A stretch of DNA of 60,142 nt from Myxococcota bacterium (GTDB lineage Bacteria > Myxococcota_A > UBA9042 > DTJE01): the NCBI GenBank assembly GCA_029975745.1, contig JARKOL010000155.1:1-60142 (forward strand), in the 5' to 3' direction. The notes beneath the pieces were generated by a model. That model was given only the letters and a program-made list of their open reading frames with translations. It was not told the origin of the DNA and ran no database searches. The position numbers and the translations under genes are program-made. Below are positions 10,123 through 22,190 of the stretch, piece by piece (the first letter of the stretch is position 1; every line of letters starts with the position of its first letter).

Positions 10123-12722
10123 ATGAGGATCCGGCCAAGACCCCACGACAACTGGTTGACCACGTCCACACTGGCGATTCTGGCTGTCTCGATTGCGCTG
10201 GCGTCCTGCGAGGGAGGCGACGGCGCCGCGGACGCCGTGACGCCGGATGCGCCCCCCCCCCGCAGGACACGGTCACGGATGTCGCCGACGATCCGGGCGT
10301 CGATGCCGTGCCCGACACCCCGATCCCGACCGACCCGGGGAACTCCACGGACGTGCCGGACTCGGACCCGTCGGATGTCTTCGCGACCGATGAAGGTCCG
10401 GCCGACGTCTGGTCGTTCGACGTCACGATTCCGGAGTCGCTGGGCGGCGACCGGCCGGCCACGCTCCACGTGCCCGCCGGCTACCGGCCCGATCGGTCGT
10501 GGCCGCTGATCGTCCTGCTGCTCGGCTACGGGGTCTCGGGCTACATCCAGGATCTGCTGATGCAACTGGCCCCCCGGGTGGACACGCACGGATTCGTGCT
10601 GCTGCTCCCGGACGGCACGGTGGACGGCGACGGCTTCGGGTTCTGGAACGCCTGGCCGCCCTGCTGCAACTTCTTCGAATCGGATGTGGACGACGTTGGC
10701 TACCTGCGCGGGCTGATCGAGGAGGCCCAGGCCACCCTGAACATCGACGCGGATCGCGTGGTGCTGATCGGGCACTCCAACGGCGGCTTCATGTCCACGC
10801 GCATGGCCTGCGAGACATCGGATCTGGTCACGCACATCGCCCCGATCGCGGGCTCGATGTCGCTGGAGCCCGCGGACTGCACCCCGGCACGCCCGGTTTC
10901 GATGCTGGCGATTCACGGCACCAAGGACAACGACATCCGCTACGAAGGCGGTTCGATTCGGGGGTTCCCCTACGTGGGCGCCGAGGACCTGGTGGCCTTC
11001 TGGCGGGGCCTGAACGGCTGCACCCCCACGACCGTCGCCGGCGACGCGATCGACTACGACACGGGCGTACAAGGCGACGAGACCTCGACCGTGACCTGGC
11101 CCGAGTGCGCCGACGACACGCGGGTGGCGTTGTGGACGATGACGGGCAGCGGTCACGCCCCGGGATTCACCGATGCCTTCCGGGACGACCTGGTCTCGTG
11201 GCTGCTGGCCCGGAAGCGGGCCGCCTCCAGACCCTCGACCCTGCCGGACCGCCTGGAGATCACGTTCGCGCGCCCCGAGTCCGGCGAGCCGGTGGCCGAC
11301 GTCGAGATCCAGGCGTTCACCCGCAAGGTGCTGCGTTTCCTGCGGGACGTCCGCTACTTCGACTACGTGCTGTACACGACGCACGGCGTGGACAAGTCCA
11401 CCGGGCTGCCGGACTGGCAGTTCTGGTACAACGAGCGCTTCCGCAAGGACGGCGATACCGTCACCTTCTACCACCCGGTGAACCTGAACGACGGCGGCCA
11501 CAACCTGCACATTCCGTTCGGCCACGTCCTCAGCCAGGTGCTTTCGGCCTACCTGCTGGTGGGCGACCCGTCGGCGGCGCTGGCGGCCGAGCAGTTGTGC
11601 AAGGGTCTTTCCGCCTCGATGCTGGGCATGGTCCACGACGCCGACGACCCGCTGCCCCACCTGATGGCCCGGAACGTCGTGGCGTTCAACCACGAGTTCC
11701 TGACGCACGACGGCAAGAAGAAGGCCATCGACGTGACCGGCTGGTACTCGGACTACACCCGCTGGAACTGTGACCGCTTCCAGTACGTGGACAATCCGTT
11801 CTGGGGCCCGATGTGGGTCACGAACATGCGCTCCAAGGACGACGTGCCGCACCTGTTCCGGATGATGCCGTCGCTGCGATACGCGGCCGTCCAGGCCACC
11901 GACGCGCCGGTCAAGGAGGCCTGCGGTCAGGCGCTGACCCTGATGGAGGCATTCGCCAAGGACATCGTCGATTCCGACTATCGCATCCGGACGAAGGACG
12001 CCGACGGCACCCCCTACATGCCGGGATTCACGGGGGACCCGGAAACCGACCAGAAGCAGGGCGACCTGGCGTCCTTCATCCACTGGCGGGACATCGTCCC
12101 CGAAGGCGAATGCAACGCGCGGCGCGGGGCCGAACTGATCGGCTACCACCGGCCGGTGCGCGAGGACTGCGGCCGCGGCGAGCCCAATGCGTACGACGAC
12201 ATCGCCTTCCTGGGCAACGCGTACAACAAGCGGATCTGTCGGTACTTCCACCTGGCGCACGTCGGGAACGCCCTGGTCAACCGGGACGAAGGCGCCCTGC
12301 TGCTGCTGGACGGGCTGGACGAACGTCTGGCCCAGGAGCGGGCCGTGCCGGAGAAGGACATGCAGGCGACGCCCGACAAGTGGTCGCGCGACCTGGCGGT
12401 GTACCTGGCCGACAGCGCGACCTTCGGATACCCGCTGGACTGGGACGACGTGCGACGCATCCAGCGCCACTACGGCCGGGCCATCGACGAGATGGCGGCG
12501 TGGCCGTACTGGGACCCGTGGGCGGAATCGGTCCCGGATGGCGACCTGGGCGGGTATCGGCCGGGATCGTGCTCGGCCGGCCAGGCCGAATGCTGGTTCT
12601 CGGTCGAGGATCTGGCGCTGATCTTCGAGACCTGCTGGTCGCCGCTGCGCAACCCCACCGGCAAGCCCTACGTCGATTGCGACATCGTTCGCGACCCGTC
12701 CCGGTGGGACGATCCGGCCTGA
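10123..12722 (+). CDS. Lipoprotein with a PHB-depolymerase/LpqC-family esterase domain fused to an uncharacterised C-terminal module of about 500 aa; the frame is broken at a C10 tract
   Basis: ATG at 10123 (GAGGGA SD) encodes MRIRPRPHDNWLTTSTLAILAVSIALASC (lipobox LASC). After the C10 run at 10252-10261 the coding signal continues in another frame as QDTVTDVADDPGVDAVPD... to the stop at 12722. Esterase blocks are WPLIVLLLGYG, FWNAWPPCCNFFESDVDDVGYLRGL and VVLIGHSNGGFMS (GxSxG). The span is 2600 nt, which is 3n+2, so one extra C would restore an 866-aa protein. Confidence 0.7.
10252..10261 (+). repeat. C10 homopolymer at the frameshift point of the esterase lipoprotein gene
   Basis: The sequence gatgc-g-cccccccccc-gcagg was read directly. 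The signal-peptide frame and the enzyme frame meet exactly here. Confidence 0.9.
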
Positions 12723-12761: not shown

Positions 12762-13679
12762 CTATCGCGACCGCCGGAACGCCCGAAGCCCGATCACCCC
12801 GAATCGCCGGACATAGCCGGGATAGACGCCGGGACAGGACGCGCGCATGGCGCAGTCGTCGCAGGCCGCGGGGTACTCGCGATCCCCGTGATCGGTAGGG
12901 AACAGGCCGTCCTCGAACCCCTCGGACATGTACAGGATGTTGTGGGTTCGCAGGTTCGCCACCGCGTCCAGGGCCGACGGGATCTGGCACAACGGAAAGC
13001 CCTCGACCACGGCCTCCAGGCCGTCCGAACCGTGCCGCGACCGCGCCGCCGACACCGCGTCGCACGCCGCCCGGCCGGCCTGCTCCGGAGGCACCAGCAA
13101 CTGCGCCGCGTACGCATCGAACAGCCCCCGGGGCTCGGCCAGACACAGTTTGTGGGTCAGCGGTGCGAACGGCGCCAGCAGGTCCCCGATGGCGACCAGC
13201 TCGTCCACGTTCGGCCGGGTAATGACCGTGTTGACGTGCAGTTCGACCCCCTTCCCGGACAGCCCGACGAGGGCCGCCAGCACCTCGTCGAACGATGCGC
13301 ACTGGACCAGGTGGTCATGCGTCGCGGCCGACGCGCCGTGCAGGGAGGTGTGTACGTAGGCCAGTCCCAGGTCCAGCAGCGCCTGGCGATACGCGGGGTG
13401 GGCCAGGCGACGCCCGTTCGTGATCAATCCCCAGCGCATGCCCAGGGCCGTCGCGGCCCGCGCCAGCACCGGCAGATCGGCCCGCAGCGTCGGCTCGCCG
13501 CCCGAAAACAGGATCATCCCGACGCCCCGCGCCCGCGCCGCCGCCATCTTCCGGGCGATGTCCGCACGGGGAGCGTCCGGCACCTGGTCCCGCCAGGCCT
13601 CGACACGGCAGAATCGACAACGGGAATTGCACTGGTAGGTCAACTTCAGGACGGCGCGCAGCGGCGGTTCGCCAGGCAT
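12762..13679 (-). CDS. Radical SAM protein (HxsC-like partner enzyme, tentative)
   Basis: Start MPGEPPLRAVLKLTYQCNSRCRFC at 13679, 34 nt downstream of the preceding gene. It has CX3CX2C (CNSRCRFC), SGGEPTL and a C-terminal Cys cluster CDDCAMRASCPG. The longer 348-aa version in the ORF track overlaps the upstream gene and was not used. Confidence 0.75.
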   Translation of the reverse strand: MPGEPPLRAVLKLTYQCNSRCRFCRVEAWRDQVPDAPRADIARKMAAARARGVGMILFSGGEPTLRADLPVLARAATALGMRWGLITNGRRLAHPAYRQALLDLGLAYVHTSLHGASAATHDHLVQCASFDEVLAALVGLSGKGVELHVNTVITRPNVDELVAIGDLLAPFAPLTHKLCLAEPRGLFDAYAAQLLVPPEQAGRAACDAVSAARSRHGSDGLEAVVEGFPLCQIPSALDAVANLRTHNILYMSEGFEDGLFPTDHGDREYPAACDDCAMRASCPGVYPGYVRRFGVIGLRAFRRSR

Positions 13680-13713
13680 GCGTCCCCCCACGGGTGGGCC
13701 GGGCGGCACCCGG

Positions 13714-15222
13714 TCAGAACCCCTGCTGCATGCGGCGGCCGTCGTGCATGTACTCGGGACGGTCCTTGACCTCGACCCAGCGGCGGAAGATGTCCTTGAC
13801 CTGCTCATCCTCCCCCATCAGCCGCGCGAACAGTCGATCCTGGACGCCCATGTAGATCACGCAGCGCTGGTTCGTCGCGTTCTGGGGGAAGATGTTGCCT
13901 TGCTCGGTGTAGTTGTACACCGGACAGGTCCCGCAGTAGGGCTTGTAGGCGCACGTCGCGCACCCGGGAATCGAGTCCAGCGTCGAGGCCATCGCGATCG
14001 ACTTGACGGTGTCGTGGGTCACGACGTCCCGCAGGGTCATCGTGTTGACCGTCCCGATCTTGAACACCTCGTCGCCCATCTGGTACACCATGCGGCCCTC
14101 GTCGCAGGTGAAGATGGACCCGTCGTAGTTGTACGCGATCTGGCCGATCCCGGCGCCGCACGGCGAGCGGATGTCCAGGTAGTTCGGATCGTCCGGGGTC
14201 AGGATCTTGGTCAGGAAGATCGCCGCCAGGCGCTCGAGGATCTCGACGCCCTGACGATTGAGTTCCAGGATGTAGTTCAGGGCCTCGTCGTAGAACTTCA
14301 GGAAGTCGTCGCCCATGTAGCCGACCATGCCTTCCGTGTTCTTGGCGAACCCGAACGGGTTCAGCGGACGCAGGAAGACGGCGCGGCACCCCTGCTTCAC
14401 GTACTCGTCCACCAGGTCCTTCGCCCGCCCCAGGTGCTCGCGGGTGATCGTCGCCAGCGCCTCGACGTGGTACAGCCTGGGGTCCAGCCCGGCATCGACG
14501 TAGGCCTGGTTGATCCGGGCCATCCACTCGACCGTCTTGTCGTACGCGGACGACTTCGCCAGGTAGCGATTCTTGTCGTGCAGGTCCTTCGGGCCGTCCA
14601 GGGATGTCGAGATCTGGACCCGGTGTTCGATCAGGTACGCCAGCTTCTCGTCATCCATCAGCGAAAGGTTCGACACCAGGCTGAACATCACGCGCTTGCC
14701 GCGCTGCTTCGCCAGGGTCGAGCCGTACTCGACCACGTGCTTGACGGTGTCCCAGTTCGCCAGAGGCTCGCCGCCCTGGAACTCGATCGTGAGGGTGTCC
14801 GACGGGGACCGCATCGCCATCTCGACGACCTTCTCGGCCGTCGGGATCGACATGTCGGTCTCGGTCTCCTTCATGTTGGCCCGGCTGGCGTGGCAGTACT
14901 TGCAGACCTCGTTGCACCGCAGCGTCACGACCATGATGTGCAGGACCGGCCCACGGTGCAGGAACGCCACCTTCCGATCGTAGTCCGCCGCCACGTCGTC
15001 CAGATTCGTGTCGGAAACCAGGAACCCCTTGGCCGCCAGTTCGTCGAACATCGCCGTCCCGGGCTTGACGCGCCCGGTCACCAGCGTCTGCAACTGGTCC
15101 TCGTCCAGGAATGCGTAGGCGCCATGGTCGTTGGTGACGACGTAGCGCGGTCCCACCTTGCGAAAGCGCGGCAGGTTCAGCATCGGCTTGGCGGCCTTGA
15201 CGGCCGGCTTCTTCGCAGTCAT
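13714..15222 (-). CDS. Radical SAM/SPASM-domain maturase (HxsB-like, tentative)
   Basis: 502 aa with CNEVCKYC (CX3CX2C) and FQGGEPL. SPASM-type Cys clusters are SPCGAGIGQIAYNYDGSIFTCDEG and GCATCAYKPYCGTCPVYNY. An N-terminal extension of about 95 aa (YVVTNDHGAYAFLDEDQLQTLV...ELAAKGFL) resembles the paired Hxs radical SAM proteins as I remember them. The ATG overlaps the upstream stop (ATGA). Confidence 0.8.
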   Translation of the reverse strand: MTAKKPAVKAAKPMLNLPRFRKVGPRYVVTNDHGAYAFLDEDQLQTLVTGRVKPGTAMFDELAAKGFLVSDTNLDDVAADYDRKVAFLHRGPVLHIMVVTLRCNEVCKYCHASRANMKETETDMSIPTAEKVVEMAMRSPSDTLTIEFQGGEPLANWDTVKHVVEYGSTLAKQRGKRVMFSLVSNLSLMDDEKLAYLIEHRVQISTSLDGPKDLHDKNRYLAKSSAYDKTVEWMARINQAYVDAGLDPRLYHVEALATITREHLGRAKDLVDEYVKQGCRAVFLRPLNPFGFAKNTEGMVGYMGDDFLKFYDEALNYILELNRQGVEILERLAAIFLTKILTPDDPNYLDIRSPCGAGIGQIAYNYDGSIFTCDEGRMVYQMGDEVFKIGTVNTMTLRDVVTHDTVKSIAMASTLDSIPGCATCAYKPYCGTCPVYNYTEQGNIFPQNATNQRCVIYMGVQDRLFARLMGEDEQVKDIFRRWVEVKDRPEYMHDGRRMQQGF

Positions 15223-15434
15223 TGCTCGCCTCGCAGCGCGATGGCCGTACCCAGCACGAAGTTGCGGAACTCGCCGGCCAGTTCGGCGGCGTCCTCGGCA
15301 ACCTGCGGCCGGAGCTCGACCACGGCATAGTCCCCCTGAACGGACACCCGGATCTCGGCAACGTCCGCGAACGCCTCGGCCGCCGCCTGGACCGCCATCT
15401 TCGGATAGATCTTCTTGTGGAACCTAAGGGTCAT
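15219..15434 (-). CDS. Small HxsD-like protein (71 aa), short paralog
   Basis: ATG at 15434 with a GAGGTG SD 5 nt upstream; the stop overlaps the radical SAM start. MTLRFHKKIYPKMAVQAAAEAFADV...ELAGEFRNFVLGTAIALR aligns with the upstream 174-aa protein. The 147-aa version in the ORF track overlaps the upstream gene. Confidence 0.65.
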   Translation of the reverse strand: MTLRFHKKIYPKMAVQAAAEAFADVAEIRVSVQGDYAVVELRPQVAEDAAELAGEFRNFVLGTAIALRGEQ

Positions 15435-15459
15435 CGCTGCACCTCGTCGGGCCGCGGCC

Positions 15460-15984
15460 TCACTGGGCCTTGCCGCCCTTGGTGGGCTCGCCGTCCTTCT
15501 TCCCGTACTTGTCCTCCCAGGGCACCGCGATGCCCAGCGGGTCGTCCAGGAAGTCCAGACTGTCCTCCTCTTCGGCCAGCAGCTTCGCGACCTCGGGCGG
15601 CAGGTCCGGCAATGCCGGAACCGCGGGGGCCGGCGCGCCTTCGACGGGGATCGCATCGGCAATCGCGCGTCCGACGATCATGGTGCGGACCTTTTCGGTC
15701 TGCTTCGCCAGCTTGACGCGCAGCGCCTGATTGACCAGTTCGTTCTTGAACTCGCCCACCAGTTCGTCCAGCGAGAACCGCGTCCCGGGACGGGCCTCGA
15801 TCTCGACCTTGATGCGATCGGCGTCCTGGACGTCCAGGTGCAGGTACGCGCGATCCAGGAAACCGAACGCCGTGCCGAACAGCACGTCCGCCGGGTAGAG
15901 CGTCTTGTGAACGATCACCGTGCCGACGGACCCCCGGGTCTGCGTCGCGACGGGCGACGCACCTTGCGCCTTTTTGGCGGGCAT
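15460..15984 (-). CDS. HxsD-like protein with a Pro/acidic/Lys-rich C-terminal tail of about 70 aa (174 aa)
   Basis: ATG at 15984 with a GGAGG SD 9 nt upstream. The core IVHKTLYPADVLFGTAFGFLD...LVGEFKNELVNQALRVKLAKQTEKVRTMIVGRAIA recalls the HxsD (LLNDYxLRE-type) family. The tail is PVEGAPAPAVPALPDLPPEVAKLLAEEEDSLDFLDDPLGIAVPWEDKYGKKDGEPTKGGKAQ. Confidence 0.65.
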   Translation of the reverse strand: MPAKKAQGASPVATQTRGSVGTVIVHKTLYPADVLFGTAFGFLDRAYLHLDVQDADRIKVEIEARPGTRFSLDELVGEFKNELVNQALRVKLAKQTEKVRTMIVGRAIADAIPVEGAPAPAVPALPDLPPEVAKLLAEEEDSLDFLDDPLGIAVPWEDKYGKKDGEPTKGGKAQ

Positions 15985-16051
15985 GGGACTAGCCTCCAAG
16001 TGCATGAAGATCGCCAGACTGCGGCGGACGCCGCCAATTCCGCGACGTCGC

Positions 16052-16081
16052 ATCCTAGCAACCGCGTTCCAGCCGTGTCAA
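16052..16081 (-). promoter_or_regulatory. Sigma70-type promoter of the radical-SAM cassette
   Basis: On the minus strand, TTGACA (16076-16081) is followed by an 18-nt spacer and TAGGAT (16052-16057), about 65 nt upstream of the 174-aa gene. Confidence 0.5.
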
Positions 16082-16139: not shown

Positions 16140-16811
16140 TCAGGGGACGGACGGCACCACGTGGAACAACACCGCGAAGAAATGACAGATGCTGCCGCCC
16201 AGCACGAACAGGTGCCAGATGGAGTGGGCGAACGGAAGTCGATGCCATGCGTAGAACAGGACGCCCGCCGAGTAGGACAGGCCGCCCATGCCCAGCCAGG
16301 CGAGGCCCCAGATGTCCAGCGAAGCCCACAGGGGCTTGATGGCGATGACGATCAGCCACCCCATCACCAGGTACATCGCGACCGCCACGAACTCGTACCG
16401 CCCCGTGAAGAACGCCTTGAAGACGATCCCCGCGGCGGCCAGTCCCCACACGATGCCGAAGATCGTCCACCCCCAGGCCCCTCCCACCGACACCAGCGTG
16501 AACGGCGTGTAGGTGCCCGCGATCAACAGATAGATGGCGGAGTGATCCAGGATCTGCAGCACGCGCTTGGCCCGGACGTTCGTGATCGCGTGGTAGATCG
16601 TCGAGGCCACGTACAGCAGCACGAGCGTCGCGCCGAAGATGCTGACGGCAACGACATGCATGGCCGTTCCGCGCAGCGCGGCGAACACGACCATCAGCAC
16701 CAGCCCCGCGATGGACAGCAGGGCGCCGATGCCGTGGGTGATGGCGTTGGCGATTTCCTCTCCGAGGGTCTGGCGATCGAATGCCTTGGCACGGGTGGGG
16801 TTCGTTTTCAT
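16140..16811 (-). CDS. Hemolysin III / PAQR-family membrane protein
   Basis: 223 aa with 7 predicted TM segments. Family motifs are EEIANAITHGIGALLS near the N-terminus and HSIWHLFVLGGSICHFFAV near the C-terminus. Confidence 0.9.
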   Translation of the reverse strand: MKTNPTRAKAFDRQTLGEEIANAITHGIGALLSIAGLVLMVVFAALRGTAMHVVAVSIFGATLVLLYVASTIYHAITNVRAKRVLQILDHSAIYLLIAGTYTPFTLVSVGGAWGWTIFGIVWGLAAAGIVFKAFFTGRYEFVAVAMYLVMGWLIVIAIKPLWASLDIWGLAWLGMGGLSYSAGVLFYAWHRLPFAHSIWHLFVLGGSICHFFAVLFHVVPSVP

Positions 16812-21168: not shown

Positions 21169-21768
21169 ATGATCCTGAAAGTGGCGCGTATGGGACACCC
21201 GGTGTTGCGGCGACGCGCCGATCCAGTGACCCCGGAGGACTTCGCCTCCGGCTGGGTCGCCGCCACGGTGCGCAACCTGTTCGACACGATGGCCGAGTAT
21301 GACGGCGTCGGCCTGGCCGCGCCCCAGGTACACCTTTCGAAGCGGCTCGCCGTGGTCGAGGTGCCCGGAGGGCCGGGCCAGGGCATCCCGCCGACCCCGA
21401 TGATCAACCCGGTGGTCCAGCCACTGACCGAACGCGAGATGGAGATCTGGGAAGGCTGCCTGTCCGTGCCGGGACTCATTGGTCTGGTGCCGCGCCCGGC
21501 GGCGGTTCGGGTGGACTACCTGGACATCGACGGTCGCCCCTCGCATCGGGTCGTCCAGGGATTCGCCGCGGCGGCGGTCCAGCACGAGTGCGACCACCTG
21601 GATGGCGTGCTGTACGTCGATCGCATCCGCGATCGCGCCACGCTGATGTTCACCGAGGAGTACCAGCGGCACCACCTGGGGCGCGGCCGGGCGGCGGACG
21701 GTGACGGCGTGGACGGCGCATCGCCGGCCGAGGTCGCCGACGACAGCCGCGACGGGATCCCCGGATGA
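21169..21768 (+). CDS. def: Peptide deformylase
   Basis: MILKVARMGHPVLR start. The three canonical motifs are present: GVGLAAPQV, EGCLSVPG and QHECDHLDG. There is an extra C-terminal tail of about 35 aa. The stop overlaps the archease start (ATGA). Confidence 0.92.
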   Translation: MILKVARMGHPVLRRRADPVTPEDFASGWVAATVRNLFDTMAEYDGVGLAAPQVHLSKRLAVVEVPGGPGQGIPPTPMINPVVQPLTEREMEIWEGCLSVPGLIGLVPRPAAVRVDYLDIDGRPSHRVVQGFAAAAVQHECDHLDGVLYVDRIRDRATLMFTEEYQRHHLGRGRAADGDGVDGASPAEVADDSRDGIPG

Positions 21769-22190
21769 CCCGCCCCCGCTACCAGGTCGTGGAGCACACG
21801 GCGGACTTCGCGTTCCGGGTGACCGCGGCCGACCTGCCGGATCTGGTTCAGGCGGCGATCCTGGCGGTCGTCGATGCCGGCTGGGGCATCGAGACGCTGC
21901 GGCCCGGAGGCACCCTGACCCCGGTGGACCTGCCGGTCGATGACGCCGAGATGACGCTCTTCCGGGCGCTGTCCGAGGTCCTGTTCCTGATCGATGCGCG
22001 CGGCCTGATTCCGGCCCAGGTGACCGTGACCCGCGACGCGAGCGGCGGATTGTCGCTGGGCCTGGACTGCGATCGGCTGGACCCGGCCCGTCACGGGCAC
22101 CGGGTCGCGTTCAAGGCCGTGACCCTGCATGGTCTGAACGTCGTCGCGGGCGGCGAGGGCCTGGTCGCAACCGTCCTGATGGATACCTGA
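21765..22190 (+). CDS. Archease (RtcB activator/chaperone)
   Basis: 141 aa with the N-terminal VEHTADFAFRV motif and the C-terminal FKAVTLHGLNV block. Confidence 0.85.
   Translation: MTRPRYQVVEHTADFAFRVTAADLPDLVQAAILAVVDAGWGIETLRPGGTLTPVDLPVDDAEMTLFRALSEVLFLIDARGLIPAQVTVTRDASGGLSLGLDCDRLDPARHGHRVAFKAVTLHGLNVVAGGEGLVATVLMDT

What the first reader, a model, noticed from the sequence alone, without database searches (positions are those of the whole stretch)
12762..16081. HxsBCD-like cassette: two radical-SAM enzymes plus two small HxsD-like proteins, with no His-Xaa-Ser precursor in sight
On the minus strand, one promoter (TTGACA-N18-TAGGAT) precedes four tightly packed genes. They are a 174-aa protein, a 71-aa paralog 25 nt later, a 502-aa radical SAM/SPASM enzyme (ATGA overlap with the 71-aa gene) and a 305-aa radical SAM enzyme 34 nt further on. 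This pairing of two different radical SAM proteins with a small protein carrying an EFxNxL(V/L)...ALR block matches what I remember of the His-Xaa-Ser (Hxs) system families HxsB, HxsC and HxsD. The substrate and product of that system remain uncharacterised as far as I know. I read all frames between 12.7 and 16.2 kb and found no H-x-S repeat ORF, so the modified substrate here is unknown. The flanking genes, an esterase lipoprotein and a hemolysin III, give no functional hint.
Basis: partly seen in the sequence, partly recalled or inferred. Interest (0 to 1): 0.75.

Follow-up and report, generated by a model that had tools for sequence, protein, structure and literature searches.

The report
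Hxs radical-SAM cassette lacking HxsA
This is a real, conserved four-gene operon related to the recently described HXS anti-phage system, but this Myxococcota branch has lost the His-Xaa-Ser target protein, so the enzymes' likeliest remaining target is an invariant peptide tail on one of the operon's own small proteins.

Summary
The four genes, their spacing and the promoter-like site are exactly as described. NCBIfam places three proteins above curated cut-offs: HxsD (174 aa), HxsD-like (71 aa) and HxsB (502 aa). The 305-aa enzyme is only a distant HxsC relative that lacks the N-terminal ~105 residues, and it scores below both the HxsC and HxsC4 cut-offs.

No His-Xaa-Ser repeat or HxsA4-type leader occurs in any frame of the 60-kb window. 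None occurs in 24 syntenic loci either (18 distinct lineages, mostly Myxococcota).

The cassette belongs to a separate "two-HxsD" lineage. Its constant core is HxsD-long, HxsD-like and HxsB. HxsD-long carries a disordered tail with a near-invariant block, DDPLGIAVPWE(E/D)K(Y/F), present in 319 protein clusters and in one to three copies per protein.

Sister lineages place an HxsA4 repeat gene after hxsB (21 of 27 loci). In the window's clade that gene is absent, the 305-aa enzyme directly follows hxsB, and the tail gains a helix.

All four genes are under purifying selection and sit among housekeeping genes.

Best reading (about 0.4): the tail itself is the substrate. Main rival: the tail is a docking motif and the substrate is unlinked. 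This is a new variant of a known kind.

The parts
16052..16081 (-). Promoter-like site TTGACA-N18-TAGGAT with a TG extension, upstream of the operon
   Evidence: It is the only consensus match in 12.5-16.4 kb. It matches 10 of 12 positions, and shuffles give 0.3 matches on average. Function was not tested.
15460..15984 (-). hxsD-long, 174 aa: an HxsD domain, a Pro/Ala-rich linker and a conserved tail
   Evidence: TIGR03976 scores 60.9 bits against a cut-off of 50. Precomputed Pfam assigns PF27806 HxsD. GGAGG lies 8 nt upstream of the ATG.
15652..15951 (-). HxsD fold, residues 12-111 (beta-beta-alpha-beta-beta-alpha), with the LYP and EFxNELxNQALR motifs
   Evidence: AlphaFold2 pLDDT is above 90 over this range. 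The best PDB fold matches are RNA polymerase Rpb11/AC19 dimerisation subunits, with E about 3e-3, which is weak.
15505..15606 (-). Conserved tail, residues 127-160. It consists of a clade-specific helix, DLPPEVAKLLAEEED, followed by the near-invariant block DDPLGIAVPWEDKY (residues 147-160, window 15505-15546).
   Evidence: The block is near-invariant in 72 unique sequences and is found in 319 clusters at 50% identity. Non-synonymous difference (pN) is 0.01-0.04 in five of the six comparisons, against synonymous difference (pS) of 0.23-0.92. The AlphaFold2 model gives it low confidence, consistent with flexibility. The helix extension is present in 24 of 24 loci with the 305-aa gene and 0 of 27 without it.
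15219..15434 (-). hxsD-rel, 71 aa: a tail-less HxsD paralogue
   Evidence: NF038315 'HxsD-like protein' scores 74.9 bits against a cut-off of 41. It follows hxsD-long in essentially every related locus that has enough sequence.
13714..15222 (-). hxsB, 502 aa: N-terminal peptide-maturase domain, radical SAM core (C103/C107/C110) and seven-Cys SPASM region (C355, C373, C421, C424, C430, C433, C454)
   Evidence: TIGR03978 scores 539 bits against a cut-off of 370. The closest solved structure by sequence is the SCIFF maturase CteB, 5WGG, E = 4.6e-26.
12762..13679 (-). hxsC-like radical SAM enzyme, 305 aa: radical SAM cluster Cys C17/C21/C24 and one auxiliary-cluster Cys set (C231, C273, C276, C282); no N-terminal domain
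   Evidence: Its best NCBIfam hits are HxsC4 (88.5 against 500) and HxsC (86.8 against 267.9), both below cut-off. The Cys residues are invariant in the family. The AlphaFold2 model has pLDDT 94.9. Its nearest folds are the radical SAM enzymes BlsE, SkfB, DesII and MoaA.

Best explanation
The operon is a functional Myxococcota-clade branch of a distinct 'two-HxsD' (HxsA4-type) Hxs radical-SAM protein-maturation system. This branch has lost the His-Xaa-Ser repeat gene.

**Shown**
- The constant core of the lineage is HxsD-long, HxsD-like and HxsB.
- The clade lacks HxsA locally.
- In place of HxsA4, a truncated HxsC-like enzyme with one auxiliary-cluster Cys set follows hxsB directly.

**Inferred mechanism**
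1. The two HxsD-fold proteins pair as a scaffold.
2. The flexible tail of HxsD-long is captured by the N-terminal peptide-binding domain of HxsB. The capture uses the DFLDDPLGIAVP stretch.
3. The adjacent W-E-(E/D)-K-(Y/F) residues are the site of radical chemistry. The tail and both small proteins contain no Cys, so this would be a C-C, C-O or C-N cross-link or a similar change, not a thioether.
4. The 305-aa enzyme adds a second modification, perhaps guided by the clade-specific helix DLPPEVAKLLAEE.
5. The product is a modified HxsD-long protein or a peptide released from it. It serves a chromosomal, housekeeping-type role rather than acting as a mobile defence module.
For: **Family assignments.** HxsD, HxsD-like and HxsB all score above curated cut-offs.

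**Conservation of the cassette.** The four genes occur in the same order in 8 genome loci and in further metagenome loci.

**Constant core.** HxsD-long, HxsD-like and HxsB occur in this order in essentially every locus with enough sequence.

**The tail.**
- The block [DE]DPLGIA[VI]PWE[ED]K[YF] is near-invariant in 72 unique sequences, while the HxsD domain itself drops to 32-46% identity.
- 407 of 475 occurrences of the pattern GIA[VI]PWE[ED] in the metagenome collection lie in relatives of this protein.
- 319 clusters at 50% identity carry the tail.
- Distant homologues carry 2-3 copies of the block in one protein, as multi-core precursors do.
- The tail is predicted flexible and is separated from the fold by a variable linker.

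**HxsA is dispensable for the core.**
- HxsA is absent from 24 of 24 loci that carry the 305-aa gene (18 distinct lineages). It is also absent from 6 of 27 other loci.
- HxsB remains the best-conserved protein of the cassette (87% identity to L002, against 64-73% for the others).
- All four genes have dN/dS of 0.07-0.41, and the tail is the most constrained part.

**HxsB is a peptide maturase.** It resembles CteB, with an N-terminal domain aligned to other peptide maturases and a SPASM region.

**Link between tail and second enzyme.** The tail helix extension co-occurs perfectly with the 305-aa gene, 24/24 against 0/27.

**Genomic context.** Neighbours are housekeeping genes: groEL, rpe, a FadL-like gene, HlyIII and transporters. 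No PADLOC defence model matched apart from generic radical SAM similarity to viperins.
Against: - The tail co-occurs with an adjacent HxsA4 gene in 21 of 27 sister loci. This includes a locus whose HxsD-long carries two tail copies. The tail is therefore not simply a replacement for HxsA and could be a docking or adaptor motif.
- The canonical HxsD has no tail, yet the canonical system works. In E. coli, HxsD is an accessory partner of HxsC, not a substrate (PMC13128918).
- Near-invariant cores are unusual for modified peptides outside cofactor precursors.
- The 24-against-0 correlations come from one clade and are not phylogenetically independent.
- Only 60 kb of this genome, and +/-5-8 kb of the related loci, could be examined. 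An unlinked substrate cannot be excluded.
- There is no experimental or complex-structure evidence.
Confidence: 0.4

Rival explanations
1. Adaptor model. HxsD-long is an accessory or chaperone protein, as in the canonical system. Its invariant tail is a docking motif that tethers it to HxsB or another conserved partner. The real substrate in this clade is an HxS-repeat or other protein encoded elsewhere in the genome.
For: - The tail co-occurs with an adjacent HxsA4 in 21 of 27 sister loci. This includes the two-copy case.
- In E. coli, HxsD binds HxsC and is needed for HxsA processing (PMC13128918).
- An Elusimicrobia locus has the order D-long, B, A4, 305-aa enzyme. The 305-aa family therefore can work alongside an HxsA4.
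- Precursor genes of peptide-modifying enzymes can be unlinked from the enzyme genes (general knowledge).
- Contiguous invariant linear motifs are typical of docking sites.
Against: - No HxS repeat or HxsA4 leader was found in the 60-kb window or in 24 syntenic loci. In sister lineages the gene usually lies within about 200-400 nt of hxsB.
- No Myxococcota-named protein appeared among the few named hits of 517 HxsA4-like proteins. Only the best 120 were listed and few carried names, so this is weak evidence.
- The model does not explain why W-E-E-K-Y is as invariant as the rest of the motif. It also does not explain why the motif is multiplied.
Confidence: 0.35
2. The cassette is an HXS-type anti-phage defence system that works like the E. 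coli HxsABCD system.
For: - HxsB and HxsD are homologous to components of the experimentally shown defence system (PMC13128918).
- The radical SAM proteins give weak matches to prokaryotic viperin models in PADLOC.
Against: - The effector HxsA, with its signal peptide, peptidoglycan-binding domain and HxS repeats, is absent.
- In the paper all four genes, including hxsA, are required for defence.
- The cassette sits in stable chromosomal synteny next to groEL, rpe and transporter genes. Canonical hxsB homologues are instead common on plasmids: 350 of the 500 plasmid records with a match are classed as conjugative, and the Aeromonas example lies next to restriction and TnsA genes.
- The PADLOC matches are generic radical SAM similarity.
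Confidence: 0.12
3. The enzymes act on a small molecule or make a cofactor from a non-protein substrate. The HxsD proteins would be only scaffolds.
For: The nearest structures and families to the 305-aa enzyme include small-molecule enzymes: BlsE, DesII, MoaA, AhbD and viperin.
Against: - HxsB is firmly within the peptide-maturase SPASM group. Its closest solved structure is CteB, and its NCBIfam neighbours are all peptide maturases.
- The 305-aa enzyme is also close to the peptide maturases SkfB and SuiB.
- Relatives of the cassette encode an obvious peptide substrate.
Confidence: 0.08
4. The cassette is a decaying remnant of an Hxs system that lost its substrate gene.
For: HxsA is missing, and the HxsC-like enzyme is shortened relative to the canonical HxsC.
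Against: - All four ORFs are intact in 18 distinct lineages.
- dN/dS is 0.07-0.41.
- All cluster-binding Cys residues are invariant.
- The genes are tightly coupled for translation.
Confidence: 0.03

Closest known systems
Canonical HXS anti-phage system, HxsD-HxsB-HxsC-HxsA (E. coli, Klebsiella, Aeromonas; Nat Commun 2026, PMC13128918; NCBIfam TIGR03976-03979)
   Same: - It has an HxsB orthologue (37-38% identity, above the curated cut-off).
- It has an HxsD-fold small protein with the LY(P/W) and (E/L)xN(E/D)xxLR motifs.
- It has a second radical SAM enzyme with the same PxC...CDDCAxxxxC auxiliary-cluster motif.
- The gene order is the same: small protein, then B, then C.
   Different: - There is no HxsA effector.
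- There are two HxsD paralogues instead of one.
- HxsD-long carries a tail of about 60 aa with an invariant motif. The 96-aa canonical HxsD has no such tail.
- The HxsC-like enzyme lacks the N-terminal ~105 residues and scores below the cut-off.
- The context is chromosomal and housekeeping, not plasmid or defence island.
- The taxon is Myxococcota, whereas 99.7% of canonical systems are in Pseudomonadota.
HxsA4-type Hxs cassettes (NCBIfam NF038313 HxsA4, NF038315 HxsD-like, NF038332 HxsC4), seen here in candidate-phyla-radiation bacteria, Omnitrophota, Elusimicrobia and deltaproteobacterial metagenome genomes
   Same: They share the same core, in the same order: HxsD-long with the DDPLGIAVPWEEKY tail, HxsD-like and HxsB.
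   Different: - Those cassettes encode an HxsA4 directly after hxsB. It has a leader (LPxIKKDIKxFLxSEEG), a hydrophobic helix and 8-61 HxS repeats.
- In some of them (for example L039, L045) a 560-600-aa radical SAM gene follows hxsA4.
- The window's clade has no HxsA4. It has a 305-aa enzyme and an extra helix in the tail.
- No paper describing this type was found.
Peptide maturases with an N-terminal peptide-recognition domain, a radical SAM core and a SPASM domain (CteB/SCIFF, and the three-residue cyclophane 'triceptide' enzymes such as HaaB and HtkB)
   Same: - HxsB has the same domain plan. Its closest solved structure by sequence is CteB.
- Aromatic-x-x motifs such as H-x-S and W-E-E resemble the aromatic-X-X sites that cyclophane synthases cross-link (PMC11499958; comparison by inference).
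   Different: - The putative substrate is the tail of a folded 174-aa protein, not a short stand-alone precursor.
- It contains no Cys, so thioether chemistry is excluded.
- No cross-link has been demonstrated.
- The only reported Hxs modification is an unexplained +8 Da on SHRSS in HxsA.
PQQ and mycofactocin logic (PqqA/PqqD/PqqE and MftA/MftB/MftC)
   Same: A small non-enzymatic partner protein plus a radical SAM/SPASM enzyme acts on a short, highly conserved motif containing Glu, Tyr or aromatic residues. The context is chromosomal and not mobile.
   Different: - The HxsD fold is not the PqqD-type winged helix.
- The cassette has no protease or tailoring genes.
- The aromatic position tolerates Y, F or H, which argues against a quinone-type cofactor.
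- The analogy is purely inferential.

Membership tests
Canonical His-Xaa-Ser (HXS) system | HxsB radical SAM/SPASM maturase scoring above the TIGR03978 cut-off | tested here: met
   539.3 bits against a cut-off of 370, covering 20-483 of 502 residues.
Canonical His-Xaa-Ser (HXS) system | HxsD small protein scoring above the TIGR03976 cut-off | tested here: met
   The 174-aa protein scores 60.9 bits against a cut-off of 50, over residues 26-111. The 71-aa protein scores only 20.9.
Canonical His-Xaa-Ser (HXS) system | HxsC radical SAM enzyme scoring above the TIGR03977 cut-off | tested here: not met
   86.8 bits against a cut-off of 267.9. It is 21-25% identical to two canonical HxsC proteins and lacks their N-terminal ~105 residues.
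Canonical His-Xaa-Ser (HXS) system | HxsA His-Xaa-Ser repeat effector encoded in the operon | tested here: not met
   The window has no HxS run in any frame near the cassette and no HxsA4 leader. HxsA is present in 0 of 24 syntenic loci. The rest of the genome could not be searched.
Canonical His-Xaa-Ser (HXS) system | Anti-phage activity that blocks DNA entry | not testable with these tools
   This needs phage challenge assays. Context and PADLOC give no support.
HxsA4-type / two-HxsD Hxs variant | HxsD-like paralogue (NF038315) adjacent to HxsD and HxsB | tested here: met
   74.9 bits against a cut-off of 41. The arrangement is the same in essentially all related loci.
HxsA4-type / two-HxsD Hxs variant | HxsD-long with the C-terminal DDPLGIAVPWE(E/D)K(Y/F) motif | tested here: met
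   The motif lies at residues 147-160 of the window protein. It is near-invariant across 72 unique sequences.
HxsA4-type / two-HxsD Hxs variant | HxsA4 repeat protein (NF038313) after hxsB | tested here: not met
   It is absent from the window, where the hxsB-to-hxsC-like gap is 34 nt. Sister loci score 105-143 bits against a cut-off of 55.
HxsA4-type / two-HxsD Hxs variant | HxsC4 radical SAM protein (NF038332) above cut-off | tested here: not met
   88.5 bits against a cut-off of 500.
Radical SAM/SPASM peptide maturases | CX3CX2C radical SAM motif plus a seven-Cys SPASM signature (tested in HxsB) | tested here: met
   C103/C107/C110, then C355, C373, C421, C424, C430, C433 and C454. Pfam finds Radical_SAM, and finds SPASM just below its gathering score (19 bits against a cut-off of 21.5). 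The closest PDB sequence is CteB.
Radical SAM/SPASM peptide maturases | A genetically linked peptide substrate | tested here: inconclusive
   The only conserved unstructured peptide in the cassette is the HxsD-long tail. No modification has been shown.
Radical SAM enzymes with one auxiliary Fe-S cluster (tested on the 305-aa protein) | A radical SAM core plus a single C-terminal set of auxiliary-cluster Cys residues | tested here: met
   C17/C21/C24 and C231/C273/C276/C282 are invariant in 24 sequences. The nearest folds are the radical SAM enzymes BlsE, SkfB and MoaA.

The most novel reading that the evidence does not exclude
HxsD-long is a new kind of self-contained precursor. It combines a folded HxsD 'leader domain' with one to three copies of an invariant DDPLGIAVPWEEKY core. 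HxsB, and in Myxococcota the truncated HxsC-like enzyme, cross-link or otherwise modify that core. The product would be a protein-borne or released modified peptide with a conserved cellular role, independent of His-Xaa-Ser repeats and of phage defence.

If so, the constant function of the whole two-HxsD lineage would be tail maturation, and HxsA4 would be an accessory second client.
Probability: 0.35. Interest if true: 0.75.

Novelty: new variant of a known kind. Interest (0 to 1): 0.55.

Why it matters
The chemistry of Hxs enzymes is still unknown. The only report is an unexplained +8 Da change on HxsA, and that system could not be reconstituted in vitro (PMC13128918).

This four-gene cassette has no repeat protein and has a short, invariant, Cys-free candidate target fused to a soluble small protein. 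That would make it a much simpler system for working out what HxsB-type and HxsC-type enzymes do.

The cassette also shows that Hxs machinery is not restricted to mobile anti-phage modules of Pseudomonadota. A vertically inherited branch exists in Myxococcota, next to housekeeping genes, which points to a second biological role.

The published census was seeded on HxsA, so it could not have detected such systems.

Tried and rejected
1. **Is the N-terminal domain of canonical HxsC a fused HxsD-like module that became the separate 71-aa gene here?** A profile of HxsD and HxsD-like domains found Aeromonas HxsD (E = 2.5e-7) but nothing in two canonical HxsC proteins. Rejected at the sequence level.

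2. **Is HxsD a PqqD-type recognition element?** The AlphaFold2 fold is beta-beta-alpha-beta-beta-alpha. Its best, weak PDB matches are Rpb11-like dimerisation subunits, YbjN and ACT-like domains, not winged-helix recognition elements. There is no support.

3. **Do lineages with multiplied tail motifs lack HxsA?** The one informative locus, L102, still has HxsA4. The other contigs were too short. There is no inverse relation.

4. **Is there an orphan HxsA4 in Myxococcota?** A profile search gave 517 HxsA4-like proteins. Few carried organism names and none was named Myxococcota. This is uninformative.

5. **Are any flanking genes conserved across the clade as a candidate substrate?** Flanks differ between sub-clades: HlyIII with an unknown 561-aa protein in one, and groEL, rpe, ABC-F and FadL-like genes in another. 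All are unrelated housekeeping genes.

6. **Do PADLOC or Pfam give extra information?** PADLOC gave only generic radical SAM and viperin similarity. The local Pfam copy lacks PF27806.

7. **Could a complex be predicted?** Predicting HxsB with the tail was not possible with the single-chain tool.

Full report
**1. Observation**

- A 174-aa gene spans 15460-15984, with GGAGG 8 nt upstream of its ATG.
- A 71-aa gene spans 15219-15434, 25 nt later.
- A 502-aa gene spans 13714-15222 and overlaps the 71-aa gene by ATGA.
- A 305-aa gene spans 12762-13679, 34 nt further on.

TTGACA-N18-TAGGAT at 16081-16052 is the only sigma-70-like match in 12.5-16.4 kb. Shuffled sequence gives 0.3 on average. A convergent plus-strand gene ends at 12722, so nothing follows the 305-aa gene in the operon.

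**2. What the proteins are**

NCBIfam results:
- The 502-aa protein is HxsB (TIGR03978, 539 bits, cut-off 370).
- The 174-aa protein is HxsD (TIGR03976, 60.9 bits, cut-off 50).
- The 71-aa protein is the curated 'HxsD-like protein' (NF038315, 74.9 bits, cut-off 41).
- The 305-aa protein hits HxsC4 (88.5 bits, cut-off 500) and HxsC (86.8 bits, cut-off 267.9) best, but far below both cut-offs.

Further detail on the two enzymes:
- HxsB has the CX3CX2C motif (C103/107/110) and a seven-Cys SPASM signature. Its closest solved relative by sequence is the SCIFF maturase CteB.
- The 305-aa enzyme has C17/21/24 plus one invariant auxiliary-cluster Cys set, C231/273/276/282.
- Its AlphaFold2 model is confident (pLDDT 94.9). 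The nearest folds are the radical SAM enzymes BlsE, SkfB, DesII, MoaA and SuiB. That does not settle whether it acts on a peptide or a small molecule.
- Against a canonical Aeromonas system (HxsD 96 aa, HxsB 484 aa, HxsC 401 aa, HxsA 192 aa), it aligns to HxsC residues 111-371 at 25% identity. The alignment includes the CDDCAxxxxC motif.
- It is therefore a distant HxsC homologue without the N-terminal ~105 residues.
- About 60 close homologues (51-98% identity) exist. The sources call them only 'radical SAM protein' or give generic mis-names. None is named HxsC.

**3. What is now known about Hxs**

A 2026 paper (PMC13128918) reports the following.
- E. coli HxsD-HxsB-HxsC-HxsA is a broad anti-phage system.
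- HxsA has a signal peptide, five HxS repeats and a peptidoglycan-binding domain. It is the periplasmic effector.
- HxsB, HxsC and HxsD are needed for its N-terminal processing and for a +8 Da change on an SHRSS motif.
- HxsC binds HxsD.
- All four genes are required.
- Because the census was seeded on HxsA, HxsA-less systems were invisible to it.
- The radical chemistry remains unknown.

**4. Is HxsA really missing?**

In the window:
- A six-frame scan finds no HxS run near the cassette. The only hits are a two-unit run at 1231-1248 and a sparse hit at 57.8 kb.
- A profile built from HxsA4 leaders finds nothing in the window.
- There is no His-rich ORF.

In related loci:
- The genome collection gave eight Myxococcota or 'Deltaproteobacteria' loci with the same genes in the same order. 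Seven have all four genes and one is a truncated contig.
- A metagenome scan seeded with the HxsD-long alignment found 407 relatives, and 80 loci were kept.
- 51 loci have HxsB and at least 1 kb downstream. Of these, 24 carry the 305-aa gene next to hxsB, and none of the 24 has an HxS-repeat or HxsA4-leader ORF.
- The other 27 lack the 305-aa gene, and 21 of them have an HxS-repeat gene, usually within a few hundred nucleotides of hxsB.
- After merging near-identical loci, this is 18 distinct HxsA-less lineages against 22 lineages with HxsA.
- The repeat proteins of the sister lineages score above the cut-off of NCBIfam HxsA4 (105-143 bits, cut-off 55). They have a conserved leader (LPxIKKDIKxFLxSEEG), a hydrophobic helix and 8-61 HxS units.
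- An Elusimicrobia locus (L093) has the order HxsD-long, HxsB, HxsA4, 305-aa homologue (39% identity). This looks like the ancestral arrangement from which the Myxococcota clade lost hxsA4.

**5. The overlooked feature: the tail of HxsD-long**

The canonical HxsD is 96 aa and ends soon after the LLNDYxLRE-type motif. Here the HxsD fold occupies residues 12-111 (pLDDT above 90). A Pro/Ala-rich linker and a low-confidence tail follow it.
- In an alignment of 23 homologues that are only 32-46% identical at the distant end, the invariant columns include D148, P149, G151, I152, A153, W156 and E157.
- Across 72 unique sequences the block [DE]DPLGIA[VI]PWE[ED]K[YF] hardly varies.
- 407 of 475 occurrences of GIA[VI]PWE[ED] in the metagenome collection are in relatives of this protein.
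- A profile of the tail alone finds 319 clusters among 1.84 billion representatives. In the best 150 listed, most are 120-225 aa with the motif near the C-terminus.
- Several distant homologues carry two or three copies of the block in one protein.
- In the window's clade the tail also has a helix, DLPPEVAKLLAEE(E/D). It is present in 24 of 24 loci with the 305-aa gene and in 0 of 27 without.
- Every locus with enough sequence has HxsD-long, then an HxsD-like gene, then HxsB. This trio is the constant unit of the lineage.
- Neither small protein contains Cys.

**6. Is the cassette functional, and in what context?**

- Pairwise dN/dS for the four genes is 0.07-0.41. In five of the six comparisons the tail has pN of 0.01-0.04, against pS of 0.23-0.92.
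- HxsB is the most conserved protein of the cassette.
- Flanks in the window are HlyIII, an unknown 561-aa secreted-looking protein, an endonuclease/exonuclease/phosphatase-family protein, a dicarboxylate symporter, a TonB-dependent receptor and archease.
- In other sub-clades the neighbours are groEL, rpe, an ABC-F ATPase and a FadL-like porin.
- There is no defence-island signature. PADLOC gives only generic radical SAM similarity to viperins.
- By contrast, canonical hxsB homologues are common on plasmids. Of the 500 plasmid records with a match, 350 are classed as conjugative and 318 are from Klebsiella. The Aeromonas example lies beside restriction and TnsA genes.

**7. Mechanism**

*Shown:*
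- The family assignments.
- The constant trio.
- The clade-wide absence of a local HxsA.
- The mutual exclusion of HxsA4 and the 305-aa gene.
- The invariance and multiplicity of the tail.
- Purifying selection on all four genes.

*Inferred, best reading (about 0.4):*
1. The two HxsD-fold proteins pair. The fold weakly resembles the Rpb11 dimerisation module.
2. The flexible tail is captured by HxsB's N-terminal peptide-binding domain.
3. W-E-(E/D)-K-(Y/F) is modified by radical chemistry that cannot be a thioether.
4. The 305-aa enzyme adds a second step, tied to the clade-specific helix.

*Main rival (about 0.35):* the tail is a docking or adaptor motif, as suggested by its co-occurrence with HxsA4 in sister lineages and by the accessory role of HxsD in E. 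coli. The substrate would then be unlinked.

*Less likely:*
- A canonical-type defence function (0.12).
- A small-molecule substrate (0.08).
- A decaying remnant (0.03).

**8. Comparison and novelty**

The cassette works like, and is related to, the Hxs system. It fails two defining features of the canonical family: HxsC above cut-off, and HxsA present. It also fails two features of the HxsA4-type (HxsA4 and HxsC4).

NCBI curators have models for HxsD-like, HxsA4 and HxsC4. No paper on them, on the tail motif or on an HxsA-less branch was found.

I rate it a new variant of a known kind with interest 0.55. The classification itself is ordinary. The invariant tail and the HxsA-less, vertically inherited branch give a simple and testable entry point to the unsolved Hxs chemistry.

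Noticed in passing
window 10123-10509 (+) and 10224-12722 (+): A short ORF with a lipoprotein signal peptide (…LAVSIALASC…) is in a different frame from the long downstream ORF, which carries a GHSNGG nucleophile-elbow-like motif. This may be a frameshift or assembly error near 10.2 kb, or a different true start.
   Followed up: no
P0176, P0179, P0181, P0182, P0189, P0191, P0198, P0208; locus L102:6694-7182: In distant homologues the tail block DDP(L/E)GIA(V/I)PWEEKYGK is repeated two or three times within a single HxsD-long protein. The L102 locus with two copies still encodes an HxsA4 after hxsB.
   Followed up: partly
L093:4407-7918 (Elusimicrobia metagenome genome, JAPLKL010000057.1): The gene order is HxsD-long (215 aa, tail DDPLGVAVPWEKKF), HxsB, HxsA4 (164 aa), then a 305-aa HxsC-like enzyme. 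There is no HxsD-like gene. hxsB is split into 307-aa and 153-aa ORFs, which may be a frameshift, a pseudogene or a sequencing error.
   Followed up: partly
L009:10603-11124 (+) (Candidatus Colwellbacteria, JAQTUL010000007.1): An ORF with 61 HxS units lies directly after hxsB. The public gene call in this stretch (10469-11005) is on the opposite strand and is probably a mis-call. Five further radical SAM genes follow.
   Followed up: no
L003, L004, L007, L008 (about 0-7 kb upstream and 10-17 kb downstream of the cassette): In another Myxococcota sub-clade the cassette lies between groEL, an ABC-F ATPase, rpe and a 160-aa lipoprotein on one side. On the other side is a convergent pair: an unknown 640-830-aa protein and a FadL-like porin. 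The synteny is stable and differs from that of the window.
   Followed up: partly
L011:4665-11550; also L049, L051-L053, L055: These are further HxsA-less variants of the HxsD-long / HxsD-like / HxsB trio, outside the window's clade. They have other radical SAM genes (655 and 418 aa) or unknown genes nearby. In L051-L053 about 2.4 kb separates the HxsD-like gene from hxsB.
   Followed up: no
window 14567-14983 (+), 16276-16512 (+): Long antisense ORFs inside hxsB and the HlyIII gene have very high third-position G+C. These are the usual high-G+C artefact, not genes.
   Followed up: no
window 21705-22190 (+): An archease-family gene (Pfam PF01951) lies about 5.6 kb from the cassette. It is unrelated to the finding.
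   Followed up: no
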